From: Paraspadella gotoi
Taxonomy: Eukaryota; Animalia; Chaetognatha
Reading direction: 5' to 3'
NCBI GenBank assembly: GCA_051294375.1
Contig: CM119264.1
Coordinates: forward strand, 5,873,621 to 5,937,620
Length of the DNA stretch: 64,000 nucleotides
The notes under the pieces were generated by a model. It made no database searches and was not told the DNA's origin. It was given only the letters and a program-made list of their open reading frames with translations. This document shows, one piece after another, positions 34,053-64,000 of this stretch; the first letter of the stretch is position 1; the number at the start of each line of letters is the position of its first letter. The position numbers and the translations under genes were made by a program.

Positions 34053-37000
34053 TCATAAACTTTCCCACATTTTACCCGTGGCAGTCCGCGCCCCCGGAGA
34101 CGGCGTGTAAATGTTGTGTTGGGAAAGCGCCGACGGAGGAGTGGCCACCGCTCCGACTGTGATTGCGGAAGCACCAGCAGAAATACCGACCCGACTAGGC
34201 GTGGAGGACTGAGAAGTATCGCGATTTCGTTGGCCGATTACTTGAACCTAAACGAATTGGATTAGACTTAGTCACCATTTTAACATAGATGTGATGAGCG
34301 GTATTTATTGTAGTAAAGTAAAGTAAAGTGTTAATACATTAGCAATACTTCGCATTCTGACCTCCGAGTCTCCGTCCCGATTCATTTTCTCTTCTTCCTT
34401 TTTAATCTTTTTCGCGTTCGGACCTTGAGCGCAAGTGGCCATGTGCACCGGCCAGTGCGCCTGTTGGCAGGGGTAATCGCAGTAAGAGGTGTTCCAGCAG
34501 CAGTAAAAGATAGCCTCCTGAAGAACCAGCGAAGTTTAAACAAATAAAATTAATCTCTGTAGATTAAATTTAACGTTAAAAATAAAAATCACAGTATATG
34601 CTCCATCCAAAATGAAGACCTTGAAACACTGAGAGCACCACTGCTTTTTTTTAGTCTCCTCGACGAGAAATTTTTTCTCGTCTTCCGATCTCCGCTTGAC
34701 CTCCTCGATTTCCCGGCTCCGGTCAAGATCCCAGACGGCCTGCCACTCGGCCATCGTCAGTTCCATGTTGTGCCGTAATTCCCGCATTTCCTGCGAGTGG
34801 AAAATCAAGAAAGAGGGGCAAAGAAAGATTTTAATGTAAAGTGTTAGGGGGCGAATACTGCGTGCCTAAGAAATAAAAGTACTTTAAAAAAATACTAATT
34901 AGTAATTTAAAGATCTGATAAGTTGGAGACATATTCGTGCGGACATCGATGGACTCGAGATGAAGAAAAATTTGCAATGAACATTTTAGGAACTGTTTTT
35001 CAATAATGACCGCTTTGATTTATCCTATTTGTTACTCTGTTTACATTTCAGATAAATGAGTAAATGAATACTGTGTTCTTGGTCAGCGTCTCCCTGTCAT
35101 ATTGTCCCTCGCTCCCACCTGCTTGTGGCACCACTTGAGCTCCTGCAAGGCCTCTTCGGTTCGCCTCTCCTCTGCCTTTTCATGTTCGCCGCCTACGACA
35201 CCGTTGACGGCCGCTGGGACGCTGTTGTTGTCGGCGCTGTTGGAGGAGGATGTGGCAGAGACAAGTTCGACGACGAGGTCCTCGACGCTCGCGCGGAGTC
35301 GGTCGAGCACGCGCGCCGTCAGCGCTTCAACGCGTGCATCGATCGGAGGCGCCCGAGATGACGGAGGGGGAACTATGGAATTAGGATGAAAAGAAATTGA
35401 TAATTATTGAGGAAATGAAACATAGCTATTTAACTATTAATCATGAACGTTGAACTTACGTTGTTCGGGGGACCTTTCCCCGTTCATATGCACGTGAGAG
35501 ACGCTCGGAACGGACTCTTGCCTCGGACGCGTCGAAGTTGCAATTCTGGTCGTTGTCGTTGAATTTGATGCTTCCGGCGTTATCTCTGTCGTACCGGTGC
35601 CCTCCGAAAGCGTCGAGGGCCAAGTGGACCGGCCGACATCGATGTTTACAAGTTGAACGCGCGGTGATCGAGTTGTCGTCGTACTCATGTTAGGGGAGAC
35701 AGTCGACGAATGATTCGCAGCGTCGCCTGACACAAAATAATTGATCGTTGAAAAAGGAATTAGGATCGAAAAACAAGGAGACGAAATTAAACAAACCTTT
35801 GGAATTTATGATGTTGTTGTTGTTGTTTTTGGATCGCTTTGATCGTGTTTTGCCGACTTCGCATTCTTCATCGCTGCTCGCCGAACTGGATCGCCGTCTT
35901 TGGGAAAAAAATTATCGTCATTAACATTATTCCTCTCACCTTTACTCTGCCTAAATTATCATTCTCGATGTCATTCTCCTCTTAAAGAAACTCCCATACA
36001 TTTCCCCTAAGCCCGTGCTTGCCTCGCCGGCCTTTTTCGACGAACGTCCAACTTGCGTCCCGTGTCGATGACTAGTTTTGAATCGTTCTCCGACTCTGAC
36101 GAACCCGAAGTCGCGTCCGGCTCGTCCTCGTCTTCGTCTTCCTCGTCGTCATCGGATGGCATCGTTCTGGTCGCTGGTCGTCGTTGTCGTCGCTGTCGTC
36201 TCCCCTGAATGAAATGACGGGAAAGTAGAGAAGGGATGGAGACAGAACATTCGACGTAGCGACCGTCGCCTCACCCCGTCCTCCTCTTCGGCCTCCGACG
36301 GACGAATCCCGCGATCTTTGGCTTTTTCGATCATCTTCGCCAATTGGTCGTTGGCTTTGGGGCGCATCGGTCGCCGACTTTCCGACGATTCCATCTCTAT
36401 ACAATCATATCAGATTTTAATTAGACCGAATCCAAAGAAAGGTTAAGTGAGGTGATATTAAACGGATTTAGTTCCTTAATTAACTAAATTTTACTAATAA
36501 TTTCTCTCTTACTACAAATACATTTGGTATTTTGTTTGTGGAAACCTGCTACGTGAGCCACCTTTACCCACCGATGTTTCTACATGAAAACCCCTCCAAC
36601 ATTTTGTTTGTGGAAACCTGCTACGTCATTATCTTTGTAAGAGTGATGGAGGCCTTAAACCACCAAAGCCTGTCCAAAGTCAGGGGCAAGATAGCTTATT
36701 TATTAAATGAATAGATAAATTTTATATTGGTTGTACCAATTTCATAAACAGTAGCGCTAAAATGGGTCATATTGATATTCTATTTCCTCTGTCTCGCACC
36801 TTCCATAGGTTCTTCCTTCCCCTTTTCGTTCTCCCCTTCCTCCTTGGCCGAACCACTAGTTCCTCCTTCTCCTCCTCCCCGCTCCGCCTTCATCAACTTC
36901 TCCTGAAGGCGAACGGCAACGTTGTCCTTCCTCTTCTTCCCCTTTTCCGACAACAACTTTCCCAGCGGAAGGATGAGCTTCTCGCCCTTTTCGGCTCCCA

Positions 37001-40000
37001 GAGGCGCCTCGGGGTTGGAGCCTTCGAAGACGCCCGTCGGTGCGTCCTTGGAGGCGGAATCCTCCGTCTCCGGTTTGGAGAAGAGAAGAGAGTCGGGGGC
37101 GTTGTTGGGGACGGGGCTGGAGGAGGAGCGAGGACCGAGAAGGGAGCCGGAGGTGAGTGGAGCTGGGGAGTTTGACACGCGACTGGCCGTTGAGCGCTCG
37201 GGAGTCTCCTTACGCCAGGATCGCTCTCGACGCGACGTTGAGCTGAGCGATGACAACAAAAATACATTATTATTAATAAAAAAACGAACGTCATAAAAGA
37301 AAAACTCTCAAACCTCACCCAGCGTTCATCAGCTTACGGACTCCGAAGGAATCCTCGAAGGACGTGTTGGGCGGCCTCTTGGGAGAAGGTTCGGTCGAGG
37401 GAGGAAGGTGAGGGAAACCGGGACCCGGGAAGTGGACGAGGGGATCGAACTGTTGCTTGTGTGGCGCGAAGGAGAAGGGAGCCTTTCGTTGGCGAAGCCT
37501 GAGGGCGAGAAAAAGAGAAAGTGAGAAGATATGTAACAAACGTGACGTGAAAGGCCACAGCCTGCTCCCATCATCACTTGTTAACGTGTTGTTGGAGCTC
37601 CTCCAAGGCGACGTCGAGACCCGCCGCTTTTTTTCTGTTCTTGTTAGAAACGGGCATATCCTCCGAAAGGTCGTAACACTGGTTGGTCGGCACCCAAGCC
37701 CGATCGTGGGCACCGAAAAATCGACAGTCCACCTGACCATTGTGTTCCCGAACGGCCTTAGCCGGCCAAAAGGGGAACCCCTTTAATTTGGCCCATACGA
37801 GAGGGTGTAATCTAAAAATAGAAGGATAAAGAAATGACTACTAATGAGGGTACGCATCGAAATATCTCGACAAACAACAAACAAATAAACATACAAATCA
37901 TACAAGCCAACGATTTTGTCAAAACAGCACGGAGAAACTCGCCTAGAACATGGCTCGACGAACCAGCTGCCGGCCGGGTGTTGAACTGCGTTCAAGTAGC
38001 ACTCAGGACAAACGTCTATTTCTTGCATCTCCACTTTGCAAATCTTCACTATCTGCGGTTGAGAATGCAAAAGGTTTGATTTTAGTAAAGGCGTCAACGC
38101 CCCGTTATATCCCAATGCATTCGACCTGACGGGCGACGCTGGTCAGTTTGTTTGAAGACCCATTGTAGACGATGCAATTGTGAAGAATCCACTTGACATC
38201 GGCGAGGAAGGCCTCCGTCGACCCGTAGACTTTGTTGTTGAGATTTTTTTCGATCGTCCCGAGATCCATCGGGGAAATTATAAAGTCTTTATAATCGGGA
38301 GCCTGGCCGGAGGGGAGGCGCAGTAGGGAAAGTTAGGGAAAAACAAAATATTGGGGCGGGGACGGGAAGTGAGATGAGCTGATGAGATCGACGGATACAC
38401 GCGATAAAAAAAACAGAATTTCGACACAAAGATATAGTTTTATATGATTTATGCTTTATTGAATAGAACTATGTATTACTTTAAATAAGCATTTATGAAT
38501 TTCGGAATATCTTTGTCGATTAAGGTCATTGGGATGTTCCTCAATCCATAAAATAATTTTCGCAAAAAGAATCAATAGATGTATTTCGTATCATTCAGGA
38601 AACTAACTTTTCTTAACAACCGAAAGAACTATCGAAAGATCTGTTGTTCCCGAAGAATGCAGCTGAATTCACTAGTTACGTCTTAAGAACATTCTCGTAA
38701 TTTAGTTTATCAATTCCGATCGAAAATCTACAAAAATGATAAATTAAAACGTATAATCGAATATTCTACCTAATTATCTCGAACCGAAAGCAGGAGAAAA
38801 ACAATAACGATCCTTTACGTTAACTTGCCCGATATGAGCTCTTTGTTGTGCTATATGGCCACAAACGTGGGCGGCACTGGATATCAAATGAATCAACGTT
38901 TTGTGCTTTAAAAATTTATAATTAAGATACTAAATTAGAAGAGGAAAAATTTCAGAGGCACTTCCCACCTGAGTCTCGTCGACAGGCTTCCGAAAAGGCT
39001 CGCTGCCTGGATTCTCCGTCATGCGAGACAGAGCGTAGCGGAGCATCGTGGTCAGCTGATCCATGTTGACGGAGGCCAAGGCCGACGAGCGACTGTCAAT
39101 GCACTCGGCGTCCGTAATACGCTGGCACTCTGAAGCGGTTGGGGGGGGGGTTGGAGTTGTAAAAAAGAAAATTATTCATATTTCTCTCTCTCTCTCTCTC
39201 TCTCTCCACCTGGACAAATCCATTCGCTGGCGTTGGGTTCTTGCGAAAGTCCGAGGCACTTTGGGTGGTAGACTCGAGGGCAGACTTCGCAGCAAACCAT
39301 GTTGCCTTCTTTGTGACATTCCCAGCAGTAGTTGTCGTTCTCTTCCTTGGTCGATGACGAGGAAGACTGAGTCGTGACTGCCGGGGCGCGTAACAAGACC
39401 GGTTTTCTGGGAAATCGAAAGAGAGAGAGAATATACTTAAAAGCTGAGCAAAAAAGGAAGAAAATAATAAAAAAAAACAAAAACAAAAAGACAAAATCTA
39501 TGACGTATGTAAAACGCAGAAAGGAACCCCCACTTCCCCCCCCCAAAAGGGGAGAAATCGAAGATCGCAACATGCAGGACGATACTCACTCTTTTGTCAG
39601 CGTTTTGGGTAAGGCAGCGTCGGTTTTCGTTTTTCTCGAATTAGCATTGAGAGAATTTGGGGCTTTGTCTCTGACGGGCGACGGTTGGCCGACAGTGACG
39701 CCGGAAAAGTGCGCCGCATCTTTCGACTCCGCCGGATGATCAACGACTGGAGCGACATCGGCGACATGAGCGAGGGAATCGTTTTCATCACAGACGGATC
39801 CGACGTTGTCCTCGACGGCGTCATAGTTTTCTTCTTCTTCTTCCTCTTCTTCATCCTCGTTATCATCGTCGTCGTTGTCGTCCCCCAACGTGTCGCAAGT
39901 GGACCCGCCGTCGTCCTCGGCCGTCTCCGTCGACTCGGACTGCGACACGAGGATCGGGGCGAGCTCCTTCCCGTCATCCTCAACGGCGTCGTCATCAATT

Positions 40001-40491
40001 CCTTCCGACGCCAGCGTGGCGTCCCCCTCGACGTCCACCACTCCTGATTCTGCCTCTTCATCCTCCTCCCCATCGTTCTCCGCCGGAGCGGGATCGGAAA
40101 CGTCCGCCATGACAGCGTCGCTGCCGGGGAATTCGTCAGAATCGTTCAGAATAGGTTCTTCGTCTTCGTCTTTGGAATCTTCGAGAATTCTCTCATCCTC
40201 CTCCACCTCTTCTACCTCGTCTCCATCCTCCAAGACCTCCCCGACCCGCCCGGCTCGGTCCTCCGCCTCGCTGTCCCCGTCCTTGATCTCCCCTTCCTCC
40301 CTCTCCTCCTCTTCCGTCATCAAGAGTTTGTCCTCCTCCTCTTTGGAGAAATCCTCGAACTCGATTCCGTCCTCGACGTCGAGCCCGTCCTCCTCGTCCT
40401 CCATCGAGGTCGGCGGGCAACGGCGCCCGCCCTTATCGTCCTCCATCGAGGAAGGCGGGCAACGGCGCCCGCCCTTCTCACCCGCGTTCAT
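34053..40491 (-). CDS. ZMYND8: ZMYND8/PRKCBP1-like chromatin reader (PHD-bromodomain-PWWP-MYND), multi-exon; exact 3' end uncertain
   Basis: [31 protein letters not shown]. Bromodomain EPFRKPVD...[10 protein letters not shown]...[85 protein letters not shown]. Confidence 0.92.
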
Positions 40492-40908: not shown

Positions 40909-41272
40909 TCAGGAGGCCAGCCCGACATATTTGACTTCCTTGCCCGACTTTTTCAGCGCGGCCATCATCTCATCTACGGACATACTGCTCGACGTAATCT
41001 TCACCTCTTGGTTTACGAGATCGACGGCGAAATCCTCGAGTTTCTCTCCTGAGAAACGGAAGTTTTCATGCTACATTATTTTTCTTATAAAAGTTATTAT
41101 TATATCTAGTTCTAAATGTTACTTTTATTTTTTATCAACTTAACAGCGATAAGTAAAATGACTAAAAAAAATACTAAATAGGCTAACCTTTGAACTTATT
41201 GAGAATTCGCTCAACAGCGCCCGAGCATCCTCCGCAAGTCATCGCGACGTTAAACAAGTGTGTTTGAGACAT
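40909..41272 (-). CDS. ATOX1: Copper chaperone ATOX1 (2 exons; absent from the ORF track)
   Basis: Exons 41272-41188 and 41048-40909 give MSQTHLFNVAMTCGGCSGAVERILNKFKGEKLEDFAVDLVNQEVKITSSSMSVDEMMAALKKSGKEVKYVGLAS*, with the MTCxxC metal site and the KKxGK motif. Confidence 0.95.
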
Positions 41273-41389: not shown

Positions 41390-44300
41390 TCAGCGTCTCG
41401 ATCGCTTCGTAGGAAGCGAAGTGATAAAATCGTCGTCCTGTTTGACTTTTCTCGCTCTGCCCGATTGTCGGACGGGAGTGACCACGGGAACGGGCGAGTT
41501 CTCTTTTCTAGCCTTCGGTCGGCCGAGTTTGTTTTTGGAGTCGATGGGCGCCGCGTCAGCCCCCGCGTCAGCATCACGGACGGCTGAAGAAGGTCTTTCC
41601 GCGATGGCCGAAGAATGCTCGGCGTCGGGGGGGATTTGTGATTCGATCGACGAACAGAGTTCCGGGTTGGGGGTAATCGGATGAGGTCGAAAAGCTCCGG
41701 CTTCGGACTCGAGATTTGATTGTGGACTAGTTGAGTGTTTCTCCTCGGCAGAGATCGGCTCATTTTCAGTCGGGTTATCTTCCCTCGTCAAAACTTGTTC
41801 AAAATGAAGATCTTCCGCGGCAATCGGAGCGGATCCTTCCTTCGCGGGGAGATTCAATTGCGAATGAGAGGATTCGTCATTAGCAGCGCCGGTCGAGGAT
41901 TCGCTTTTTAAATGGACGAAGCTTTCTCCCTTGGTATCGGTGTGCATTGGCCCTTCGTCTTCGCGGACAAGAAGCAACGACTCTGATTCATTTGAATATT
42001 TTTTATCCGGTGAGTTTTGTCCCAGTAGAGCGTCATCGGCCAAATTACAATCCTCCGGTAATCGCGAGAAATGGTCGTGACGTTCTTCGTTCAACGAAAC
42101 ATTATCAGAATCGGAAGTAACTTCCATTTTAGAACCCTCCACTTGCCCCGGGCGACAGAAAGATCCCACATTAGGTGAAACTCGTTGATTTTGTGACTCG
42201 TATTCAGGAGGATTCTCTTCAACGTTCTCCCTGACGATCTCGAACTGTGTCTGTGAAGAAGTCGCTTTACACTCGGAAAAATCAATTTTAGATTTAGGTA
42301 AGCAGCTCGTTTGAACCTCTGCCGAATCTTTTTGAAAGGATTCGACTCTCGATTGGTCGATACTGGCACCTTCACTGACAGTCGTTTCAATGGAGGAAAA
42401 ATGAGAAGGATTTTCGAAATCGCCGAACTCATTCTCTTCATTTCTCGAAAAGTTTTCATTGCAAAAAGATTCGACTGGTTTTTGCATCAAAGCCTCGCCT
42501 TCCGCAACGACGGGCGGCCTCTCGGCGAGTTCATTTGCTTCTTCCTCTAAGGACGGCTTCTCATGGAGTTTGTTTTTTTCCGGGTCTTCTTCTATCAATG
42601 AAGACCTGTCTTTGTAATCCTTGATTACCGAAATCGGCGGTTCCTCATTACAATTATCATTATCACAGGCATCGACGATTTTTTTATTATTTTGAATCAA
42701 TTCTTTCGACAGAGATGAGTCAGAATCTGCCTCTCTTTCATGAATATTTTTGTCGCTATCACTCACTTGGATGATATTTTTTTGGCCGATTGATTTGTCA
42801 AAGTTCATGACTGTGGGTTCGACAATGGTCACTGCTTCGGAGATTTCGCTTTTTTTAGTGTTAGACCCAGGATTTGTTAAGACGACTTCTTGACAGATCC
42901 GAAAATTAATTCCCGTTCTATCAAATTTTTCATTTTCTTCTACTTTTAAATCGTTACTTTCTAAAGATTGGCTCGAGATGTTTAAATCTTTCTCGACAGA
43001 TTCACAAGAATCCCTCGTTAACGAATTCTGAAGCTCCGTCTTGGAGACTTCTCCTTCGTCATAGTCGACTGCGGAGACGTTAATGCCTGCCTCGTTGGAG
43101 ACTTCATTTTCGACTCGCAATGAAACTTTAATGTTGGGAAATTTTTTATCAGTTTCGTCTTCGGAAATATTTTGTCCCATTTTCTGATTCTTTTCTACCG
43201 ACTTTTCTTCCTCCTCCTCCTTCTCCGATTTAACTTCGCCCAGACCTATTTCCATTTCATTTTTCTTTTCATCTGATTCTTCGGCCTGGCCGCTCGTCTC
43301 TCTCTGTCGTTCGGCTTCTTCGGCAAGAATGGAGGCGGGACTTTTAGGAATCTTACAGGACTCGGAATTTTTCTCCTCGAATAGTCGGGGTTCTCCGTAC
43401 AAGACTTTCGCCCGCTTCAAAATCCCGCTGAGTGCCATGCGGTATTTGACGGAACCAATGGTCTCTTCTTCACTGGCCGAGGATTCTACCTCGCCCTCGC
43501 TCGCCGCAGACGGTTCTTCCGCCTCGTCCTCATTCGTCTTAGTCTCTTCCTCCCTTTCTTCTCCTTCTTCGGGCTTCTGGTGAATGATCCCCTCCTCCTC
43601 TCCCGTCCATTCCTCGTCGACTTCCCCGTCCTCCCAACATTCGTCGTCGGACACGATCTCCTCCACCTGAGGCTCCTCCTCCTCCGCAGCAGTTTCGGGC
43701 GTCAAACTGCGACGCCTCTTCCACAGATTGGATTGTTCGTCGAGCACTTTGACCGGCTTTCGGACTATTAACTGTTTCTCGACGTAAGTGGCGAAGTCGA
43801 CGATGACATCCCGGCGTAGAAGCGGGTCGGGTTCCGGCTTTTCCTTCGGAGAATCGCGCGCAGTGGGCGAGATGCTCTTTCTCCGCCGATAAAAGATTCG
43901 GCGGTCGTCGTCCGGCAACGGTTTTCTTCTATCCGTGATTTTCTTGACGGGCGAGGATTCTGGTTCCGAGGAAAGAGGATACTTGCCTTCCCTCGCCGCC
44001 CTCCGACGGTCGCGCTCCTCCATCCAGAGCCTGTGTTGTCGCTTCTGTTCGTCGGTGTCATCTTCGGACCGCTTCACGTAGAGAATGCCAGTCTCTTCGC
44101 TCTCAAAAGGCGGAGGAGGAAGAGGAGGCGGTGGAGCAGTCGCCTTTTCAACCGCATCTTTTGCATCATTTTTTTTATCGTCATCATCTTCATCTTCGTC
44201 GTCGTCCTCTATTTCTCCTTCGCTCACTTCTCGAGACGACGGTTTCGTTCCTTGAGAAGAATCTTTAACCGGAGATTCCTCATCTTCGTCGGAAGAGGAA

Positions 44301-47300
44301 GACGAAGACGACGAAGAGGAGGACGAGGAAGAAGAGGAATCTTCATCGGACTCTTTTTTAGACTTCGGTGTCGTCGGCTTAGGACGTTCAATCGAAATTA
44401 GTTTGCCCAACTCCTCGTCCCCGCTTGAGATGTCCTCCAAATTGGAGGAGCGACCCTCATCGCTCAACATTGACCCGCGAGGAGACAATCCCGGCGGCGG
44501 CATTGGCATCGGCGGTGGAGGCACCGAGGGTAGCGCTGGTGCCAAAGGCGCTCGCTTTTTCGGCGGCGAGGCCGAGCGACGTCGATCGGCGGGGGATAGA
44601 GATCTTTTGCGCTTTGGCGCCTGCGGTGAGGGCGTTCTCCGCTTGTAGAGCGGCCGCGGGGAAGGCGTTCGCCGCCGGGGTCGGGACGGAGACGAGGTAG
44701 CACCTTTTATCGTCGGATCATCTCTAGGCGAGGGCGGGCGCCCGGCATGGCGATACCGGGATTGCGGCGACGGAGTACGGGGTTGCGTTCTTTCTTTACT
44801 TTGAGAAGGATATTCTTTTTCGTGAGTGTGGTATTCCTTTTCGCGAGCGGGGTATTCCTTTTCGCGAGCGGGGTATTCCTTTTCGCGAGCGGGGTATTCC
44901 TTTTCGCGAGCGGTGTATTCCTTTTCGCGAGTGGGGTATTCTTTTTCGCGAGGAACATACTTCTTATCGCGAGTGCTTAATTCTTTTTCCCTAGAAGCAT
45001 AATCCTTTTCACGATGATAATAATACTCTTTCTCTCTGGCGCCGTAATCCTTTTCGCGATGCGGGTATTCTTTCAGCTGGGCATAGTCTTTCTCTCGTGT
45101 GACGAAATCATCGCGGAGAATCGTGGGAGGAGTAGAGGGGCGTTTTGACGGACTAGGCGACCCGCCTCTCCGATGCCCCAGAGGATAATCTCTTCCTCCG
45201 GAAGAGGAGAGGGAAGGGCCGAGAGGCGCGGGCGGCGATCCTTTATCGGCCTGAAACATCCTGGCCTTGTCCACCAAGTTGCTGCGGACGATTCGGGCCA
45301 AAGGATCGCGATCCCGTTTCCGCGCATCCTCGTCGTCGGCCTCCATTCTTGATGATTCTTTATAGGGCGACGATCCATGGGTACGTTGAAGCTTTTCTCG
45401 CCGATCTCGCTCCGACGGTAATTCGCCGGTGCTCTTGATGGCAGGGCGGGGCGACGCGGATGGGCGGATGACTTTTTCCTCCCGTTGTGATGGCGGCGTT
45501 TGCACGCTCTGACGAGGCGGAGTAAATGCTTCAGAGTTGGACTTTGTCTCCGCATCAACTCGGCGTCGATCGATTTCGCCGGGAACAAAGAGCGGCGCTG
45601 AAAGTTTCTTCGGCGTTGGCGAACGCGACTTGGTTCGGCTGCGCGATCTGAGTTCTGGGGTCCCCGGCGGAGTCCGCGGTCCGGACACCGATGATGAGGG
45701 CGGTGGTGTTCGAGGGCCTTCGCGAGAGCGGGAGAAAACTCTCGCCGGGATTCTCGGCGGCGTTTTGGGTGGCGTTTTCGATCCTTTAGTTGTGACGAGA
45801 GGCGAGATCTTGGGAGATTCTCGCGATCGAGACTCCAGGCTCCGGCCGATGCTTTTCTCTAAGTCGGAATCGACTGCTTCATCAGTTGATTCGTCGTCTA
45901 TGATGTATCGATCATCGAGAAAAGAATGCCGAGAGGATTTGTCATTGAAGATTGTCTCGAAGGCACCGTTGTCGTACCTCTGGTTGCGCTGCCTCGATCT
46001 TCTCAGCACCATCCTTTCCATGATCTTCTGCTCCCTAACTTCCGTCTTTTTCTCTGCCTTACTCTTTTTCGGCGATCGCTCGCTGTTTCGCGACGTGGAG
46101 CTGGCAGAATCGGCGTTCTCCTGCGTTCCGCCGCTCGATTCCAACGCGCGTTGACGGCGACGCTCCTCCAACTCCTCTCGTCTCTTCTTCCTCCTCAACG
46201 CCCGCTCCTCCTTTTCCTTTGGCTTCAATTTGATCTTGTCCCTGCGTGTCTTGGTCGAGGCGACGCTACCGCTGGCGTCCTCGTAATCGTCGTCGCTGCC
46301 GCCTTCCGAATCTCGTCGAGGCTTCTTCCGATTCAAAACTTTCCTCCTCTCTCCTTCTCTCATTCCTCTTCTTTCCCCTCTGCCCTCCTCATCCTCGTCC
46401 TCTTCCGTAAAGTCGCTCAACGAGAGATCGGACGTGTGAACGCTGGAGACGCTAATTTCGCTCATGAACTCGCTCAGGTCGTCCTCGGACATATTCTCCC
46501 AAGCGAATTTATATTCCTTGTGCGACGGGGCGAAAGCGGACAATTCATTTCTCTCATCCTTGGGTAGCGCTTCCAGCTCGGTCTTCCTACATTCCCTCGC
46601 GGCAAAACAGTCGACTTTTAGGTTGGACTCTATTTCTTCTTTCAAAGTTCCCCTCTCAGTGGTCGTTTTAACCAAGCCGACTTTTACATCCGGCTCTTTA
46701 GCTTTTACTGCGTCTATCTCAGCTTTGACCGCTGAGGATGGCGCCGGACTGCCATCTTTGTTCTCGGAGTTTTCAGCCGGTGGCATTGGCGCCGTTTCAG
46801 GTTCAGGAGGCAACGGAGCATCCGGTGCGGGAGGAGGTCCAGAAGGCGGTACAGAAGGCGGTCCAGAAGGTGGCCCGGAATGTGGCCCGGAAGCCGGCCA
46901 AGCACCCCAAAGACCCCAGGCGCCGGGCATCTGGGGTGGCATGCCTGGGACCCAGGGAGTCATGCCTGGAGGGTACATGCCCCAAGTTGGAGGCATGGAA
47001 TAAGGATATCCAGAATAGCCTGGTTGGCTCGGCAGGGGAGGGGCTCCCGAGGGGGGAGGAGGAATTGAATCAAGAGAGAGGTTCGGGGGAACAGGGGGCG
47101 GGGGCGGCAATGGAGGAACATGGCCAGGTGGTGGCGGGGCGTCTAACGGACCATACGCGCCGGGCGGCGGCCCGGTGGGTGGAATTAACGTCCCAGTGGG
47201 AGCAGAAGAAAGATTTGAAGTCGGCGGTGGAGGGCCGCAATCGAGGCCAAGAAACTCATAGGTGATCTCTTTGATTTTTGGTCGGAAGACAGTTGCTTTT

Positions 47301-47722: not shown

Positions 47723-47869
47723 TGTTTTCTGGTCCCAAAAAATGGAAAATACAAGATAACAAATACAACCGGGAAGAAAGAAAAGCTAAAAAACGGCATT
47801 GAGAAACAAACGATAGGATGAAATGATATTTTTTTTTAGTTTATATTGAGAACATACAGAAAAACAGCG

Positions 47870-50756: not shown

Positions 50757-50852
50757 GACGCACGAGGTTTCAAGAAATTATATGGAGAAATATGATGCTA
50801 TGATAACGGAACAACAGGAAGAACGCTGAGAAGATCCGAGAAGCGAAATATT

Positions 50853-52985: not shown

Positions 52986-53762
52986 TCACGTCGTCAATTT
53001 GTCGTAATGTTCGGTGAGCATCTTGGCCAGCGCGTCGATCTCTCCCCGCTTATCATCGAGCGTCTGTTTCCGTTTTGTCGACGACGACATGCCCGCCATG
53101 TTGACGGCGTGAAACTCTTCGAACCCGACCATGGCGAAGATTAGTTTAAGGTAAGGCGCGAGAAAATCTCGATCCGGGCTGGCCGCACCACCGGCCGACG
53201 TAAAAAGGATGAGCGGTCGGCCGGGCCGGACAGGTCTTGGCGGCTCTCCCCGCTTCTCCTTGAAATTAATACCAGGCTGGATAACGATATCAATGTACTG
53301 CTTGAGTATGTAGGGAATGCTGAAGTTCCACATGGGCGTAGAGACGATGAGCACATCGACCAGGTTTATCTCTTTCGCCATAGCGAGCACTGGCTCGAAC
53401 TTTTCCAGGTCCTCGGCGGTGCCCTTACCGCGAAGGATACGGAGCTTAGAGTCGGCGTATCCCGAGTCGTAGTGGTAGAGTTCCTGCCAGAGGTCGAGGG
53501 CTTTGACCCGGTGAGGAATCGTCAGTTGATCGAGCAGGTTACACGCGGCGACGGAGACGATAGAGTTAGGATTGTGGCCGACATCGAGATGAAGAATGTT
53601 GATGTATTTGTTGTTGTTTTTGTTATTGTCCTCCCCCTCGAACTGGTGCCAGAATTCGCCGGCAAAAATATTTTCGTTTCGGTAGAGACGGAGGAAAACG
53701 GGGAAGACGGGCAAGAATCTCGCTTGGTTCGACCAGCGACCGGAGATTCTCGCCAAAGGCAT
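52986..53762 (-). CDS. FMN-dependent NADH-azoreductase/quinone reductase (AzoR/AcpD flavodoxin-like fold), intronless, with N-terminal extension
   Basis: INILHLD...S+S, LDLW, DVLIVSTPMWNFSIPYILKQYIDIVIQPGINF, FTSAGG and DFLAPYLKLIFAMVGF match AzoR motifs (APMWNFSIP..LK.YID; TSRGG; DF..PYL..IFGF+G). Probable ATG at 53762, giving 258 aa. Confidence 0.9.
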   Translation of the reverse strand: MPLARISGRWSNQARFLPVFPVFLRLYRNENIFAGEFWHQFEGEDNNKNNNKYINILHLDVGHNPNSIVSVAACNLLDQLTIPHRVKALDLWQELYHYDSGYADSKLRILRGKGTAEDLEKFEPVLAMAKEINLVDVLIVSTPMWNFSIPYILKQYIDIVIQPGINFKEKRGEPPRPVRPGRPLILFTSAGGAASPDRDFLAPYLKLIFAMVGFEEFHAVNMAGMSSSTKRKQTLDDKRGEIDALAKMLTEHYDKLTT

Positions 53763-53900: not shown

Positions 53901-56233
53901 TCAGGCGGACGGGTTGGACGTGGATTTGACGACGAGTGGATTAGAAAGACGAAAGATTCCCGGCAACATGTTGCAAAACGTCTGATCGAAAAGAAATAAT
54001 TTCTTTTGTAAAAAATAAAAAATGTCGACAACGAAAAAAAATCCTAACCTGAAAAAGACTATCGTCGATTCCGGATGGAACTAAAAACTGAATTTCTCGA
54101 TTCCGCTGACCGGAAGAACCGGCACTGCCGATAGAACCGGAACCCGAAGTTCCTGTCGCGTTCCACGTCGCCATCTCCATCATGAAACCTTTGACGCACT
54201 GAATGAAGAAAAAGATGGAGAGGATGTCGCGGAAATAAAAATCAGGAACCCTAAACTACCTAATTTATTAACAGCATTTTTACCTTGAAGACCAGCTCGG
54301 CCCTCTTCACGCACCATGGTATCGTCATTTCTTCCCCCATCTCGTGAGTGAGGAGGAGGGGAACGCAAACCGTAGTGATGTCGTACTGAGAACAGAGTTT
54401 GAGTATGTTGCGAATGGAGAGGATCGAATAATGACGCGAGGTGAGGTTGCCGTCCCTGACCGAGTCGTCGACGGAGAGGTGGAAGACGGCGTGCACCTGC
54501 GCCAGATTCGAGTGGCGTGTCACGTAAAAATCGCCCGGCCGCAAGTGGGTCGTTTCTCGTTCCACCACTTCGGCCACGTTGAGGAATTGGGAAGGATCCG
54601 TTGGAGAGTTGAACTCCGGCGGAAGAGGATCTTGGATTGGCGGGGGACGTTCAATTGATTAGAATGAAATTGGCATAATGGACGAAAGGATGAAAACTGA
54701 CAAAGTAACATCCAAAAAAAGAATAGAAAGTATCAATCTAATTATCACATCAAAGAGATCATAATATCCTGGCTTTCTCACCTTCTCCCTTCTCACATCT
54801 TGAGAGGTTGACGGCATCGAGATCTTCCCGGATCCGCGCGAACTGCTTCTCTAAATCGTCAAAGTGGAAGTCGGTGCTCGAGTCGCAGGCGCGGGCAAAG
54901 CGGCGCTTCATACCCGAGTAGGTGTTGAGGCGAGAGTCGACGAGGAGAATCATTCCTGGGATCGAGGGGGAAAAGGATGAAAGAAGAAGGAAGGAAAGAA
55001 TCGAAGGCAAGGGATAAAGGAAAAGTAGAGAGGAAAAAGCAGAGCTCACTTGACATTCTAATATTGAAAAAATTGATATTATTCCACATCTTTCTGTTAC
55101 CACTTAATCTCTAAAATCCGTCCTTGGCTTAAAACCCCTTGAGGGGGTTCATAGAAGTTAACGAACACAAACTCTGAGTCTGAAGATAGATTTCTGCCTT
55201 CCGTATGTCACTGTCCGTTTGTTTCAGCCAGACAACTCCATTTTCGATCTTCCGAGCCGAGGTCGAGCTAACCGGTGAGAGAGTTGGCATAAAGGCCCAT
55301 AGCCGTTTGGAGTCGCTGCGGTGATGGCAACAAATGACCATCGACTTTCATGGGGCGATGAATGCAGAGATGATCGATGACATCGCAGCACAGTAGGCGA
55401 AGGTTAAAACTCGTTTTCATTTGAGTCCCTGAAAAAAGAAAAAAAAGAAAAAGAAAAAAAAAGGAAAAAAAAATAAGGAGCAGTAATTTTTAATGTTCAG
55501 CGTTTGATGTCCGTTTCTTGTGTTTACCCAAATGTATTGTGAAGCTCTCTTCCATGATCGATCGCAAGGCCCTCGTATCGGCTTCCACCTCCGGCGACTC
55601 TTTCGATTTGTTTTTGCGAAGACCGACTAAATGGGGAGCCGAGGTCGTTGCGGCGGCGGGGGGAGTCGCCTGTTCGTAATATTATTTCAAACTTAACAAA
55701 TTATGTATAATTCGATTAAATATAAATCCGCCACTCGACTCACAGTCGGCGAGGGAGTTTTGGAATCGAACAAACTTTGAATCTTCGTCAGATAAGAAGT
55801 TAAGTCGTCGCTGGTTTGAATTTCCTCGTGAACTTGCATTACCCACGACCTTGTGAATTAAAAGAAAGGAGAAAAGGATATGCCATATGGGCTCAAACGT
55901 AGAAGGAAGTTCTTAAGGAAATAAAAACAATAAGACAAAAAAATGGAAGGAAAGGATCGGCAAATATCATTAACGGGTTCCGGAATTTCCTTCACTATTC
56001 CTCCTCTGGGGAGGGGGGGGGGAGAAAAACCGGAGGTGACGTTTATCATGTTTATCTCGTTGACCTCGATAAAGTCGGGATTGACAAGAATTTGGGGGGG
56101 GGGAGTTAGGCGCGATACAACGATCCGAAAAGGCTTTCGCGGTCACGGGGTCAGAAAAAAAATCGGCAGGGGTTGGATTTGGCCGGGACTAACGTCCTTA
56201 ATCCGACGGACAACAGTGGGAAAACGTGTGTGC

Positions 56234-56316
<83 letters not shown>

Positions 56317-59300
56317 TCAATCGTTTATGTATGATGTATATGCAAAAAAGGAGAATTTTAAGGTTTTCAATAGAGTTTTCCTAAGTTTGTATGCGATTCC
56401 ATTCAACAGAGCCAAAACTGCGAAGTAAAAAAGAAATTTATTTTGCCATCGCCCACCAAAATCGCCGTCCCCATCGGCAATGGCCAATGGCCATTGTCCG
56501 CGATCACTTTGTCTCGAAGTCGTGGGTCCGTCGATCCTCGACGATAAATGACCCTGACTTCGGTCAACGCGACTGTGTCGATCGGCTGTCAACGGCTTAA
56601 AAATCGAGAGGCGAAGAGAGCGAGAGAAGGATTTTTCATTCTGAGTCTTGATGACTGCAAGCACAGCTATTTGTTTTTTTTTATTTCGCGTGGAACGTAA
56701 AATCGAAACTCAACAACAACACAAAATAAACACAAGACAAAATAAAAATTCGAAACTATGGTTTTTGCCGTGGTAATTCGCCTGTTGGCGTTGCTCGCAA
56801 TAATCACCGTCAATCCCTCGGACTGTTTTAAATTAAAAAACCTTTTTCAATTTGAGTCCGACGTCTGGGATTCGCCACGTCCACGTCGATCGGTTCGAGT
56901 CTCCGACGAGAAATTACTAGGGGTAAGATCGTGAAGAAATAGAAAAAAAAACCCAACTTGGTCATTTCTTCTATGAATTCCAAACAACACGAATTGCATA
57001 AATATATTTATATATCTTTTGTTTTTCATCATCATTTTAGAATGTAGTTGACCCGGGCAGCGACGATGACGAAGACGAAGCGGACGACGATATAAATGAC
57101 GAATTAAGCGAAGACGACGAAACGACGAGCGAAGAAGAATTTGAAGAAGAATTTAACGACGACGACGAAGAAGGAAAAGAGAAAAAAGTAGCTCAGGCCT
57201 TGGAAAGCCTCTTGAGAAGGTAAATCAATGTTCAACATCAAAATCAACGACTTTCATTTTAAATACAATAGATTATTGAACCTCGGCCCCATTTTCTCCT
57301 ATATTCCTTTTTTACTCCTTACAGGCGTCAACTGCTCTCGCCGACCGGATTTCGCCTGATGATCACACAGAATGGAACGGTGAGGGGCACGAGAAGAGAT
57401 TACGCTCTGCACGGCATTTTGGAACTGTTCCCCGAGGAAAGCCTCGACGATAACGTTACCGACGAAAAAATTAAGCGAGTTTTCGCCGAGGCGAGAGCCA
57501 ACGGTGAGTTTTCATCTGGTCAAAATTTTGTAGATGTTAAATCAATGTTTTAACCCATAAATATTTAACATTAATACCCTCACCTTTATCCCTAATTAAC
57601 AACTTAAATAAAGAGTCTTTATGCTTAGCAGGAAGCAGTACATTTTGTCGCTCGTCGTTTTAGATCTCCGTCGTTTCGACCTTCTCCCGTCTCACGCCAC
57701 CGTCCCCCCCACACGCGCCTTTATCAGAGGCGTCAAGAGCGACCTCTACATTTGTATGACGGACAAAGGCGAAGTGGCGGGCAAGGAGACGCTCGACACG
57801 AGTTGTATTTTCGACGTCGATACGCAGCCCGATAAAACCATCACTCTCTCGAGAAGAATGCCCAAAGGAGGTAAGGGTTGTTAAAAAAATTACTGGCGAT
57901 AAAAAACGTTCTCATTAGAATCAATTAAAACAAGATTGGATCCGAAAATCTTTTTCCCCAGACGGCCGCCCTCGCCGCGATGTGACTGACTTTCGCAACA
58001 TCCAAACCTATTACTTGGCTGTGTTCACACACCATCCCTATAAAGGATTCGTACGCGGCTTGGACGCCGTCACATTGCTACAAACCGACCCCCATTCCCT
58101 CTCCCGCATCGCAAAGCAAGTCTCCTTTCTCGAGCGGCCCGTCGACCCGGAAAAAGTCCCCAAACTTTATAGCTACGAAGAAGCCGGTCTTCTCGTGCTG
58201 GACACCGTTGATTAAACGGTCGGGATCCGCAAACGTAACATTCGTTTTTAGCATGCCTCTATCTACGTTTCTAGATTACACATGTCTGATTATCTGTTGA
58301 GTCGTTAAGATATATCACTATTATCATCCGCTTTTTAATTTTGCATTAAACCATTTTAACGGCAAACAGCTCTCGTTTTTTTCTTATCCTTAACCGCTCC
58401 ACGCTTCCTCGACTCGAATCCCACCTGTACTCCCTCCTCTGCGCCTCACGAAAAGCGCAGATCTCCGAGGCCCACTTGGACTCGGCGACCTGCACGGCCT
58501 CGAAGTGTCGGGCGGCGACGTCGTTGATGGCCTTGTCGTCGTGGGTGGAGCCGAGTCCCTTCACCGCCGTCGCCATCTCCTCCTCCTGTTTGGCCTCGAG
58601 GATTTCTAGATCGTCGTCGCGCCGGCGGACGAGGTCCTCCATTGCCAGAGCGTAGCTAGAATTGGGGAGGGCGATGGAGAAGAGACTTAGTCGTCAGGGA
58701 ACATTTGTGATAATCCACAAATTAATCTGCTACAAGAAGACGTTTACATCGGCAAAATGCAAATGAATTTGAAGTTGCGGTCGTACCGATGCTCAATATG
58801 TAGCAGTGTTTCCATCGCAGGAGAGTGGATGAGGGAGTGATAAACTTCAGAGAATAGCAGCGTGTCCGAAGCCTCCTCCGGTTTGGCGAATTGACGCCAC
58901 TCGCGCGAGTAGGCTTTGGCCCACGACTCGGCGAGCTCGATGACGTCTAAAGTGGGAACAACGATCTCAAGATGAACTCTCCTTGGACGCCCGAAATCAC
59001 GTTTGTAGCCGTTCTTCTCTAACCTTTTGACGTCTTGCCATCCTTCATGGATCGTATGGAGGCTTCGGCCGCCTCGTCCTTGATTCGGTTGGACTCGTCG
59101 GTGACAAAGTCCTTCAACGTCGCCTTCAGGTCTGCCTCAACGAAGCAAGGGAGCCCGTGGGCAGCGACGAGGCGTTCTGCCAGCTCATCTACGTGCAAAG
59201 CGGAGGAGGGAAGCGCGATTGGGACGCGGAGGGTGTGTCTGGAATTTCAGACGAATGCGGTGTGCAAAAATAAATTCAATTAAGTTTTTATAAAGTAATA

Positions 59301-59391
59301 TATTACTTTTTTCTCACCTGAGATTCGGCTTTCCCGTCTTAAAAGAAAAGACAAACTCTTTCAACTTCTTTGTGGGAGAAGTCGCGACCAT
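53901..59391 (-). CDS. C12orf4: C12orf4/FERRY3 homologue (DUF2362), multi-exon
   Basis: [56 protein letters not shown]|[84 protein letters not shown]. Confidence 0.93.
56237..56313. repeat. (AG)n microsatellite
   Basis: Uninterrupted ag run of ~76 bp, upstream of the nested FGF gene. Confidence 0.98.
56758..58215 (+). CDS. Fibroblast growth factor, FGF9/16/20-like, 5 exons, nested antisense in a C12orf4 intron
   Basis: Exons 56758-56922, 57041-57219, 57325-~57503, 57664-57870, 57962-58215 with compatible phases. [56 protein letters not shown]...CIF, YYLA and [15 protein letters not shown] align to FGF9 (ILRRRQLYCRTGFHL...GTRKDHSRFGILEF; IRGVDSGLYLGMNEKGEL; FLPRPVDPDKVPELY). Confidence 0.9.
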
Positions 59392-59865: not shown

Positions 59866-61966
59866 TCAATACATCGTGTCGTGGTTTGCCGTCCTCGGCT
59901 TTTTAATTTTGTCCCAGTTTTTGCAAATAATGTCGTGAAGAACCGCGTAGTGATTTCGAAGTTCCACAGCGATTAACCGAATGGAGAGAGCCTAAATTTT
60001 CCCCGAAAAAAAATATATCAATAGTCTTGTCTTGTCATTCTCTAAAGAACTTCACTTCCAACAATGATGTACGGAAGGCTTCATATTATAAAATGATATC
60101 GGGCTTTCTTACCAAGCATGGTTCCGAATAGACTACTCGACAAAATATGTTGACATTTGGTATGCACGATTCCGATGGAAACTATCGAGGCGAATTTAAA
60201 AATTTGACACCTGGGCCGAGATATAGGCCCCACTAAGGGGCAAAAAATAGTCAAAAATTTAGTCCCAGGGCCCTCTATCTCCTCTAAGGGGTTGAATATC
60301 AAAATTCGCCTCGATTTTTTTTATTAATAATATAAATTGTTCGATTCATTTAGTTATTAAATGTAAAATTTCACAAAATTCTATCAAGTAGTTTGGTGGG
60401 AACCGTGTCTGATTAGAAAAAATCTTAAAAGTAGAGTGATCTCGCCAGACGTTACTATCAAAAAAATTAATGAAATAATAATAAAAAAATAAAAAAATTA
60501 AATGATTGATACGATAACAAATTATTGATATGATAATAATGAATTATTAATGCAATGATAACGAATTATTATTTTGCAATGGTAAAATAATAACTTGCGC
60601 GCCTGCGATGATTAACGTCATGAGTTCGATCCTGATAACTCGTTTTTAGACGAATCAGAATAGAGAGAGAGAGATAGAAAAAGAAAAAAAGAGAGCGAGA
60701 TAGAAAGGGAAAAAAAAGAGAAAAAAAGAGAGGGGGAAAAAAAAACTGCATGCTTCAGTTAGTCATAATATAAAAGAAATTTAAACATAAAATATTTTAA
60801 TCCATATGAAACATATCATTTTAAGAAATATTTAATATATATATATATAATTTTTATCTTCTTACAAATACATACTTTTACAATTTCTAACTGTAAAAAA
60901 AAGCGTAATGATGACGTCACTAAAAACAATAGTAAACCATTCTCTCACCCAACTCAGGCGTAGGCCCATCTGGCGAGATAAAAAAACATTTTCTACTCAA
61001 GCCTTATTTTCATTAAAAAATTCGCGAATTATGCATCATCAGCACAGAGTCCTCACCTGCTTTTCGTCTAGCTCGACGATGGTACGGCGAAAGTCTTCAA
61101 CGTGCGGATATTTGGCAATTTTTGTGACGACTTTTCCGCGATTCAGGTGGTAGCTGGAGATTGCATCCAAGTACGAGCACCCGTCCGATTCCACCTGTCG
61201 AATCTCGCCAAGGGTGTCCTCCTGAAGGAGGGAGATGAAATTCGGTGATTGTTTGATTGTCGCAATCTCAGTCTCAATCTCAGCCTCATTCTCTCTCTCA
61301 CCTGAACGGAGACGCCGAAGTTGTTACCGTCCTCGATTCTCGGAATCAAGAACGTGACCCACATCTTCAGCATGTTTGCCGACTCTACTAATTCCACGAT
61401 CTGTCGAGGGTCGTGAAGAAAATTATATTACATTGACTGACTTGAGATAAAGAGTGACAGGGGAATTTGAATAAAATGCGCATTGCCCACCATGGGTTTG
61501 ATCTTGGAAATCATCCCGGCGATAATGGAATTGCAGGGAGACGTCCCGTGGGGCAGGAGGAGGACTTTGGATCCCGAGACGCGCGACAACTCGTCCTCCT
61601 CGACGACCGCAAATTCCGAGTCGATCTGGCGGGACAAGGAAGGACAATGAAGGAAAATGAAGCATGTCAGTAATTCTCAACTTTTTTAAAATCTTCCCTC
61701 TCCCTTTCCCTCACCTTCCTCTTCTTGCCCACGGTCTCTTTGTCACCGGAGGAGTCCCCATTCGGCGAGTTGGGCGGCGGCTTCGGAATGGGAATGTTGA
61801 CAGGACATTCGACGGAGACGGGAGGGTTGAGCTTGAAATCCTGCGTTAGGATGAGTTCCTCCAAAGCCATAATTCGCCGAGGGAATTCCTTCTTGACGAG
61901 ATTTTCAGCTTTGGATTTAAGCGACTCTTTGTAGGACGTCAAACGGGACTCGGCATCGGTCGACAT
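59866..61966 (-). CDS. PSME3: Proteasome activator subunit PA28gamma/REG (5 exons)
   Basis: KAENLVKKEFPRRI, LKMWVTFLIPRIEDGNNFGVSVQEDTL, ISSYHLNRGKVVTKIAKYPHVEDFRRTIVELDEKQ, ELRNHYAVLHDIICKNWDKIKKPR. Confidence 0.95.
60417..60986 (-). mobile_element. HINE/DINE-like element (family 2) in PSME3 intron; partial copy at ~18335-18480
   Basis: Subterminal inverted repeats atctcgccaga (60439-60449) and tctggcgagat (60969-60979). Same aaaatcttaaaag terminus as family 1. Confidence 0.55.
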
Positions 61967-64000
61967 GGTTTTCTTTGTTGATTAAAGTTGGGTACAAATA
62001 ATATTAGAGAATCTGCAATTGGTACCAACTGAAACTCAAAAAAAGTAAAAAAAATATTTAGTATTCCTACTCAGTGACTCAGTATGCCTCTATTAAATCT
62101 TTTTTCATTTCTGAATTCATTTCAATATATTAATGTCAATTGCTGAGAAGTCCAAAGTTCTTGTTCAGGTCTATTATGACTTGATCAATGGTCATTTTAA
62201 CGTCTGTGATGATGAAATTTCGTTTTCTTTTGTTCCTGGATACAAATTTTAAGGGTTTTACGAATTTTCTTCAATTTTAATGGTTCATCTAAGACTGGAC
62301 AAAATGCCAAAAAGAAGAACCTGGATAAACTGCAAAGCATTTTCTAATTTACATAATTTAAATTAAGACCTAAAGATTCAACAAAAACGCGACAAAAAAA
62401 ATTATTAAAAAAACATTTTATCGGTTAAAAAAACGCAGCGATACGATATAGAAAATTATTATCATTACGTTTTCATTTTGGTGAAAATTTTCACAGCTCC
62501 GCAAAAATTCAGAAACTCATCTCCTAAAACGAGACAGTTCTATGCTCCGGCAACGGTTCAAGCACGACCAATTGTCAGAGATCAATGATCTCAAATGCAT
62601 TTAAAACGAAAAAAGTTAATGCTTTTAACTCTGATATTAAATCATATCTGCATAGAAAATGAGTCAGGAGGAAATGATTATGAACGTGATGTCCTCTTCC
62701 AATGATCTCGTCTTCATCTAAAACAAACGCGTTCTATTTTCGATAAAAAATATAACTTATTAAATCTAATATGTATAGAAAATAGATTTTTTGAAGTTAA
62801 AAAAATAGAGAATTTCTCTAAAGGGGGTCTTGGCGTTTCGTCGTAACAAAATACTTGCTTACTGCTTAATAACGAAAAAGAAGAAATTTTTTTTTTATCC
62901 AAGAATATATTGTTAAGAAATTCACTCTGAAAGGAATAAAGTATAAACGAACAAGACCGCCACAGGATTAAGAAAAACTGAGTATTTTTTTTACTTTTAG
63001 CACCAGTTCAACGCCAACAATCTACAGTAAATAGTGAACTATTTCTTTACAATAGATTTGTGAAAAAGTTAAACTATTTGCAGTATTCATCTTGGTTTCA
63101 TTTTTAGGCTTACAGTTGGTAAAACAAGCATTATCTGGGTAATCCTTTGTTAACTAATTAATTTTAAGCCCGTTCGTAAAATTAATCCCTCGCAGTGACT
63201 AAATTACTTAAATGTAGCGCTGGAAATAAAAATGAAATAAAATAAAATCTCGAAAGGCTTATTCTTATGTACTATACGTAGTCGCAATGATTGACAGCGA
63301 ATTGGTAAAGATGAATTGACAAAAGGACATTTAACTGCAACATCAATGGGCTAAAGCTAAATTTATTCCTCCTTCAAAATTTATCACTGTTTTCTGTCTA
63401 TCAAGGCCAGGCACGTCTTGCGTAGCTGATCCACTGGGCCTGCCACCAGGGTAAAACTTATAAGGCGAGAAAAGCGAATTTCAAAAACGCTGGCAAAATA
63501 AGTCAACAAAATCTAGACCAAAAGCCGCAAAACATTAATAAAGGCAGCTTAGAAATTAGTCCCAATAATAACCGATGGGAGAGTGGGGCGAATTCAGTGG
63601 AAAAGCATTTTTTATTCAAATATTAAAACAGGGCAGTTCCGTAAATCCAAAAGCCATTCTTTCAGAAATTAAGATAATTGTGATCTAATTTTCATATTTT
63701 AATTTACCGAATTTAATTTACAATATTACTGTGAAATAGTAAAAATTAAAAATGTTATTACGCCATTATTAAGTTGCAACAGCTAGACCTCTGGTGACAC
63801 ACGGTGAGAAATACAATACACTATAAGCACAATGCTTATAATATGTAAGGAGAGTAGAAGTTATGTAGGTTAATGATTAGCTCAAAAAAAATTCTTTTCC
63901 CAGAGGGTAATTGGTGAGGCGAGGAATTTCCCAAAAATCTTAAGATTGCCGGCGTTGCTTTCAGAAAAGACAAAAAACGGAGTCATTGAAAGAAGAAACC

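What the first reader, a model, noticed from the sequence alone, without database searches (positions are those of the whole stretch)
34053..62015. Nine co-oriented genes with tiny spacers and apparently unpaired splice acceptors: candidate SL trans-spliced operon
Seen: PSME3, C12orf4, azoreductase, NCBP3-like, N6AMT1, ERCC8, BOD1L, ATOX1 and ZMYND8 are all on the minus strand. Stop-to-ATG distances are about 474, 138, 228, 322, 61, 147, 117 and 417 bp. Most spacers contain a pyrimidine tract plus AG just before the ATG, with little room for a promoter and 5' exon: T15-AG at 41305 (ATOX1), ccAG at 47729 (BOD1L), cctacAG at 53796 (azoreductase), gttttAG at 52797, T9-AG at 40583 (ZMYND8), ttgcAG at 62013 (PSME3). 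Known: this layout characterises polycistronic units resolved by spliced-leader trans-splicing in nematodes, tunicates and flatworms. Inference: a ~28 kb operon rich in nuclear chromatin and DNA-repair genes.
Basis: partly seen in the sequence, partly recalled or inferred. Interest (0 to 1): 0.8.

Follow-up and report, generated by a model that had tools for sequence, protein, structure and literature searches.

The report
Nine-gene operon hiding an FGF gene
Nine housekeeping genes lie head to tail only 61-474 bases apart in what is likely an arrow-worm genome and are likely read as one or a few long messages cut apart by leader splicing, a mechanism already described in arrow worms; an overlooked growth-factor (FGF) gene sits backwards inside one of their introns.

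Summary
The layout is real: nine minus-strand genes, spacers exactly as reported. 'NCBP3-like' is unsupported, and a tenth gene was missed: a five-exon FGF9/16/20-like gene antisense in C12orf4 intron 4. Pyrimidine-AG sites before the ATGs exceed shuffles collectively (p 0.01-0.10 by method) but are weak in three spacers; donor absence is within chance. One run's contigs (X1, spliced) bridge ERCC8-BOD1L, run through the ATOX1 acceptor, and hold 0.88 of words where 0.884 is expected if five spacers are transcribed (0.778 if not). One ATOX1 contig ends T-tract-AG-A7 at the ZMYND8 acceptor, like Ciona's intercistron-less junctions. No leader was seen, but contigs cannot show 5' ends. The host is likely a chaetognath (single-gene tree, indirect), where SL-resolved operons are published (18% of genes, longest nine). 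Verdict: likely a long candidate operon of a known kind, trans-splicing unproven here. This scan earlier noted another nine-gene candidate operon elsewhere in this genome (e1-10588163).

The parts
59866..61966 (-). PSME3/PA28-gamma, 5 exons, 258 aa; first gene; candidate acceptors (G) at 62029 and 62013
53901..59391 (-). C12orf4/FERRY3, 11 exons, 611 aa; only a weak acceptor (59419); intron 4 (58424-55850) hosts the FGF gene
56758..58215 (+). Nested antisense FGF9/16/20-like gene, 5 exons (56758-56922, 57041-57219, 57325-57503, 57664-57870, 57962-58215), 327 aa, hydrophobic N-terminus; expression not shown
52986..53762 (-). Intronless azoreductase-like Flavodoxin_2 gene, 258 aa; acceptor G 53796
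50853..52757 (-). Unassigned intronless 634-aa low-complexity ORF ('NCBP3-like' not supported); acceptors 52843/52797
49710..50530 (-). N6AMT1/HEMK2, 3 exons, 218 aa; strong acceptors 50660/50634 behind a 43-copy TC microsatellite
47870..49648 (-). ERCC8/CSA, 4 exons, 432 aa; 61-nt spacer with only a weak acceptor (49671)
47723..47869 (-). ERCC8-BOD1L spacer, bridged by one 3724-nt contig spliced on both sides; acceptors 47786/47729
   Evidence: record 4
41390..47722 (-). BOD1L-like, 2 exons, 2075 aa
41273..41389 (-). BOD1L-ATOX1 spacer with T15-AG (G at 41295); the ATOX1 contig follows the genome through the AG into the T tract
40909..41272 (-). ATOX1, 2 exons, 74 aa
40583..40908 (-). ATOX1 3' UTR, covered by contigs down to the T9-AG acceptor of ZMYND8 (G at 40583); contig end reads T8, AG, seven A, then foreign letters
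   Evidence: record 1 and table 7
34053..40491 (-). ZMYND8-like (PHD-bromo-PWWP-MYND); last gene; AATAAA 78 nt after the stop; full exon chain not completed
26100..33480 (+). Convergent SID-1-like gene closing the block on the 3' side (start approximate; two exons seen about 6 kb apart)

Best explanation
The nine genes are likely transcribed from one or a few upstream promoters into polycistronic pre-mRNA that is likely resolved by spliced-leader trans-splicing at pyrimidine-AG sites 6-130 nt before the ATGs, as published for arrow worms. Shown: the layout, RNA across or up to three junctions, collective acceptor enrichment. Inferred: the host taxon, the leader, the number of promoters. At ATOX1-ZMYND8 the upstream poly(A) would be added on the G of the downstream acceptor (no intercistronic DNA), so the trans-splicing cut itself could form the 3' end, as proposed for Ciona. 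The nested FGF would be transcribed separately from its own promoter in the 908 nt of intron upstream of its ATG and be spliced out of the operon precursor with C12orf4 intron 4. That all nine genes form a single unit is less sure (about 0.4); the 474-nt PSME3-C12orf4 spacer is the likeliest break.
For: Spacers 61-474 nt next to a loosely built convergent SID-1 gene, so compaction is local. Run X1 shows four GT-AG introns removed and zero depth inside the ATOX1 intron, so its cover is RNA-derived. Record 4 bridges ERCC8 to BOD1L with introns removed on both sides. Word share 0.88 versus 0.884 expected with all five spacers of 44500-54400 in RNA and 0.778 without (sd about 0.01). ATOX1 RNA runs to the ZMYND8 acceptor and leaves the genome as AG plus seven A; that string is nowhere in the window and matches the boundary described in PMC1488885 section 14. 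No A(A/T)TAAA before the acceptor in 6 of 8 internal junctions, present after 3 of 3 terminal stops (weak, the spacers are short). Acceptor enrichment on the sense strand only. C12orf4 groups with three unnamed transcript-sized proteins (100) beside lophotrochozoans (SH-aLRT 94; quick tree); chaetognaths trans-splice about half their genes and place 18% in operons, with a 3-nt intercistron at RPS14-PCNA.
Against: No leader seen: the ATOX1 contig is genomic through the acceptor (0 other letters) and the BOD1L acceptor is passed without a break; the tool states that contigs cannot show a start. A contig across two genes is not one molecule, and a single break per spacer (expected share 0.869) cannot be told from continuity. 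One run, one study, possibly the assembly's own material. The AG-A7 end rests on one contig, has T8 against T9 in the window, and is followed by unexplained letters. Three spacers have chance-level acceptors, the cis-matrix test gives p 0.10 for the 8 internal spacers, donor absence is within chance. No named chaetognath sequence was in any tree or hit list of mine.
Confidence: 0.65

Rival explanations
1. Each gene has its own promoter, lying inside the 3' part of the upstream neighbour, and its short outron is replaced by a spliced leader: trans-spliced but monocistronic.
For: In P. gotoi about half of genes are trans-spliced but only 18% are operonic. Outrons overlapping upstream UTRs would also fill the spacers with RNA and leave genomic T tract on the ATOX1 contig.
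Against: Needs up to eight promoters inside UTRs or coding exons; the N6AMT1-ERCC8 spacer is 61 nt in all; does not explain A7 starting exactly at the acceptor G.
Confidence: 0.15
2. A compact housekeeping cluster without trans-splicing: independent capped transcripts with abutting or overlapping UTRs and some read-through; the T-rich AG sites are mostly UTR composition.
For: No leader in two inspected acceptors; acceptor statistics modest and method-dependent; host taxon indirect.
Against: Sense-strand-specific acceptor enrichment; canonical poly(A) hexamers missing in 6 of 8 junctions; nine co-oriented genes in a row (0.4% for one given run of random strands, by arithmetic); likely host uses SL widely.
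Confidence: 0.14
3. Some junctions are not resolved at all: stable dicistronic or read-through mRNAs (e.g. ERCC8-BOD1L) are the main product, and the downstream frame is reached by re-initiation or not translated.
For: The ERCC8-BOD1L contig is fully spliced and unbroken.
Against: The ATOX1 and BOD1L contigs are separate records, and ATOX1 has its own 3' end; assemblers merge paths, so one contig is not one mRNA.
Confidence: 0.06

Closest known systems
Chaetognath SL-resolved operons: Spadella cephaloptera RPS14-PCNA (PMC2481426) and Paraspadella gotoi operons (PMC12460157)
   Same: Co-oriented housekeeping genes, very short spacers, near-zero distance from poly(A) site to acceptor (3 nt in S. 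cephaloptera); nine genes equals the longest P. gotoi operon reported.
   Different: The reported nine-gene operon includes ribosomal protein and ubiquitin genes, absent here; no SL shown here; 3 of 8 stop-to-ATG spacers exceed 250 nt; a signalling gene is nested inside although operonic genes are reported as depleted for signalling. Their Supplementary Table 1 (xlsx) could not be read, so this locus may already be listed.
Ciona intestinalis intercistron-less operons (PMC1488885)
   Same: Poly(A) added on the G of the downstream acceptor AG; canonical hexamer usually absent within 40 nt (here 41 nt upstream at ATOX1, absent in six other junctions).
   Different: Ciona operons are mostly dicistronic and mapped with SL-bearing full-length ESTs; here one contig at one junction.
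C. elegans operon CEOP3416 (PMC1657053)
   Same: An operon spanning an opposite-strand gene inside an intron of one member.
   Different: Nematode operons use SL2 and about 100-nt intercistrons; the nested gene there is not described as an FGF.
Chordate Fgf-C12orf4 neighbourhood (PMC13591910) and bystander/target microsynteny (PMC9002814)
   Same: C12orf4 is listed among shared neighbours of amphioxus FgfB-FgfE and mouse Fgf clusters; here an FGF lies inside C12orf4.
   Different: The chordate neighbours are FGF4/5/6 and FGF19/21/23 types; the nested gene best matches FGF9/20 in all three core exons, so shared descent of the linkage is unsupported so far.

Membership tests
SL-resolved eukaryotic operon | Run of co-oriented, closely spaced genes | tested here: met
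   Spacers 61-474 nt; the antisense gene is intronic, with precedent.
SL-resolved eukaryotic operon | Acceptor without upstream donor before each downstream ATG | tested here: inconclusive
   Collective p 0.011 or 0.10 for 8 spacers, three at chance level; donor absence within chance.
SL-resolved eukaryotic operon | Spliced leader on downstream mRNAs | tested here: inconclusive
   None in contigs at ATOX1 or BOD1L; contigs cannot show 5' ends; no raw reads offered.
SL-resolved eukaryotic operon | Polycistronic precursor across junctions | tested here: inconclusive
   ERCC8-BOD1L bridged by a spliced contig; spacers largely in RNA by word share; single molecules not shown.
SL-resolved eukaryotic operon | Single upstream promoter, none in spacers | not testable with these tools
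   Needs CAGE or chromatin data.
SL-resolved eukaryotic operon | Host encodes an SL RNA | tested here: inconclusive
   No Rfam match and no chaetognath SL-like pattern in the window; no whole genome held; host taxon inferred.
P. gotoi operon (operational rule of PMC12460157) | [quoted passage not shown] | tested here: inconclusive
   5 of 8 stop-to-ATG spacers are under 250 nt; ATOX1's UTR fills its spacer to the acceptor; UTRs at the other two not mapped.
Ciona-type intercistron-less operon | Upstream poly(A) attached to the G of the downstream acceptor AG | tested here: inconclusive
   One contig, AG then seven A at 40583, followed by unexplained letters.
FGF9/16/20 subfamily (nested gene) | FGF core with closest similarity to FGF9/16/20 | tested here: met
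   Pfam FGF E 3e-6, above cut-off; FGF9/FGF20 are the top four PDB hits for exons 3, 4 and 5 (exon 5 only E 0.04). No tree built.
NCBP3 | Detectable NCBP3 domain | tested here: not met
   No Pfam, NCBIfam, PDB or Atlas hit.

The most novel reading that the evidence does not exclude
A single 28-kb, nine-gene arrow-worm operon, tied with the longest on record, in which trans-splicing itself cuts the upstream 3' end at zero-length junctions (Ciona-type, convergently evolved), and which carries a developmental FGF9/16/20 gene antisense in a C12orf4 intron, an FGF-C12orf4 linkage that may date back to the bilaterian ancestor.
Probability: 0.2. Interest if true: 0.62.

Novelty: new member of a known kind. 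Interest (0 to 1): 0.36.

Why it matters
If confirmed it is one of the longest animal operons outside nematodes and gives named junctions at which to test how 3' ends form when no intercistronic DNA exists, a question left open for Ciona (PMC1488885 section 17). The nested FGF offers a test of how a regulated signalling gene is insulated from constitutive antisense polycistronic transcription, and a candidate chaetognath FGF ligand: my searches found no paper describing one. The mechanism itself is already published for the likely host phylum, which limits the surprise.

Tried and rejected
No whole genome is held. In one search no contig covered 40480-40585 (ZMYND8 5' end); a hole proves nothing. 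In one search the loose-end table showed 6 of 49 rows, all in low-complexity stretches, and the T run before ATOX1 was skipped as a repeat, so the BOD1L-ATOX1 link could not be read; the idea of a 16-nt leader on ATOX1 from that call was rejected. Relatives' transcripts with leaders were sought in metagenome contigs with the azoreductase alignment: 80 of 130 loci kept, none close (best 51% over part). Cluster look-up gave no names for 8 relatives. The letters after the A7 match nothing in the window (0 hits at 3 mismatches; best 9 mismatches of 28) and do not resemble the published chaetognath leaders; haplotype difference, a second ATOX1 copy or a library chimera stay open. No close FGF relative found (17 candidates, none at E<=10; 3 uninformative long hits), so FGF expression in relatives is unshown. 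Rfam: 0 matches. The sigma-70 scan is irrelevant to an animal. Gene names not found in the three readable supplements of PMC12460157. The ZMYND8 exon chain stopped at exon 10. Literature search returned nothing.
Full report
Observation. I rebuilt the genes from the sequence. Eight of nine translate without a stop through GT-AG introns; ZMYND8 was chained for nine exons only but its PHD, bromodomain, PWWP and MYND exons hit Pfam. The spacers are 474, 138, 228, 322, 61, 147, 117 and 417 nt. PSME3, C12orf4 and BOD1L are confirmed by Pfam, ERCC8, N6AMT1 and ATOX1 by PDB hits. The azoreductase is a Flavodoxin_2 protein under the curated AzoR cut-offs. The 634-aa ORF has no hit in Pfam, NCBIfam, PDB or the Atlas, so 'NCBP3-like' should be dropped. 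Downstream, a convergent SID-1-like gene ends at 33480, with two exons about 6 kb apart (2 of 27 flank ORFs hit Pfam, both SID-1); the one long ORF tested upstream of PSME3 had no hit.

A missed gene. C12orf4 intron 4 (2575 nt) holds a five-exon + strand gene, 327 aa, open frame, GT-AG introns, hydrophobic N-terminus. Exon 4 passes the Pfam FGF cut-off, exon 3 hits below it, the other three do not hit; FGF9 and FGF20 are the top PDB matches for exons 3, 4 and 5. Lophophorates have one FGF9/16/20 and one FGF8/17/18 (PMC8180254, passages). An operon spanning an opposite-strand intronic gene has a precedent in C. elegans (PMC1657053, passages). C12orf4 is named as a shared neighbour of amphioxus and mouse Fgf clusters (PMC13591910, section 15 part 1), but of other subfamilies, so an ancient linkage is only a lead.

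Acceptors. With a simple pyrimidine count before the best AG within 130 nt of the ATG, the nine regions exceed 1000 dinucleotide shuffles each with Fisher p 0.005 (0.011 for the eight internal ones); the reverse strand gives 0.34. A matrix from 36 cis acceptors of the window, run first with a 100-nt limit, gave 0.04 and 0.10. PSME3-C12orf4, N6AMT1-ERCC8 and ERCC8-BOD1L are at chance level in both. Donor-like sites are absent from 6 of 8 spacers, but 3 in total is within the shuffled 4.3+-1.9. A(A/T)TAAA is absent before the acceptor in 6 of 8 junctions and present after the ZMYND8, FGF and SID-1 stops; the spacers are short, so this is weak.

RNA. Of three runs listed, one (X1, contigs, kind guessed) holds 0.88 of 1017 sampled words of 44500-54400. 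It shows four introns removed at GT-AG ends and no depth within the ATOX1 intron, so the cover is from RNA. The share expected is 0.884 if everything but introns is present, 0.869 with one break per spacer, 0.778 if the five spacers are absent: the spacers are largely transcribed, but continuity is not proved. Record 4 (3724 nt) runs from spliced ERCC8 exons through the 147-nt spacer into spliced BOD1L exons. The ATOX1 contig follows the genome through the AG at 41295 into the T tract with no other letters: no leader there. The ATOX1 3' UTR is covered down to the T tract of the ZMYND8 acceptor, where one 179-nt contig leaves the genome as T8, AG, seven A and 21 further shown letters. That string is not in the window. 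In Ciona operons poly(A) is added on the G of the downstream acceptor, giving AG followed by A's (PMC1488885, sections 14 and 17 read). I read the contig as such a 3' end joined to a foreign fragment (inference, about 0.55); a haplotype difference, a second copy or a pure chimera are not excluded. The tool warns that contigs show neither starts nor single transcripts, and this is one run of one study.

Host. A C12orf4 exon matches three unnamed transcript-sized proteins at 79-84% and named animals at up to 72%. In a quick tree without bootstrap (47 of 101 hits plus the window) these four form a clade (100) beside molluscs and unnamed rows (94), apart from rotifers, arthropods and deuterostomes. 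I guessed chaetognath from this before consulting earlier notes (note); several unreviewed notes on this genome say the same, which is a lead, not support. No named chaetognath was in my data; I put the assignment at about 0.85 and leave the species open.

What is known. S. cephaloptera has SL trans-splicing and an RPS14-PCNA operon with 3 nt between poly(A) site and acceptor (PMC2481426, passages and section 13). In P. gotoi 10,197 of 21,072 genes are trans-spliced, 18% are operonic, there is no operon-specific leader, signalling genes are depleted and the longest operon has nine genes including ribosomal protein, ubiquitin and proteasome genes; candidates were called at under 250 bp (PMC12460157, passages, sections 5 and 10). 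Its three PDF supplements do not name these genes; the spreadsheet with the operon list was too large to read and may already hold this locus. PMC7986045 and PMC9002814 were seen as passages. Searches bearing on novelty; none of the listings described this cluster or a chaetognath FGF nested in C12orf4.

Verdict. The layout is real and most likely (0.65) one or a few SL-resolved polycistronic units in an arrow worm; all nine in one unit about 0.4. It works like a published chaetognath operon, but membership is not shown because no leader was seen. The additions of value are the nested FGF and the possible zero-length ATOX1-ZMYND8 junction. Interest 0.36; new member of a known kind.

Noticed in passing
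window 56758-58215 (+): Intact five-exon FGF9/16/20-like gene nested antisense in C12orf4 intron 4, with an acidic linker exon and insertions in the FGF core; a 39-copy GA microsatellite (56236-56313) lies about 450 nt upstream of its ATG.
   Followed up: partly
window 52986-53762 (-): Intronless azoreductase-like gene; groups with 12 unnamed transcript-sized proteins and, one step out, Tigriopus (99) apart from prokaryote-type AzoR (quick tree); Arg-rich N-terminal extension. Possible old horizontal transfer with patchy animal distribution; not tested.
   Followed up: partly
L002 420-665: A metagenome contig carries an azoreductase-like relative (51%) that appears to be interrupted by GT-AG introns.
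   Followed up: no
window 48773-49032: Six perfect 43-bp tandem copies in ERCC8 intron 2, each repeating the exon end and the GT donor, giving six identical donors.
   Followed up: no
window 26100-33480 (+): SID-1-like dsRNA channel gene, convergent with ZMYND8.
   Followed up: partly
window 60970-60860 (-): An acceptor inside PSME3 intron 4 opens a short in-frame stretch that could be an alternative last exon.
   Followed up: no
window 50853-52757 (-): 634-aa intronless acidic/SR-rich ORF with no family match in four libraries.
   Followed up: partly
window 5400-12000 and 28600-32200: Several diverged copies of a GC-rich repeat element around an assembly gap at about 8460-8486.
   Followed up: no
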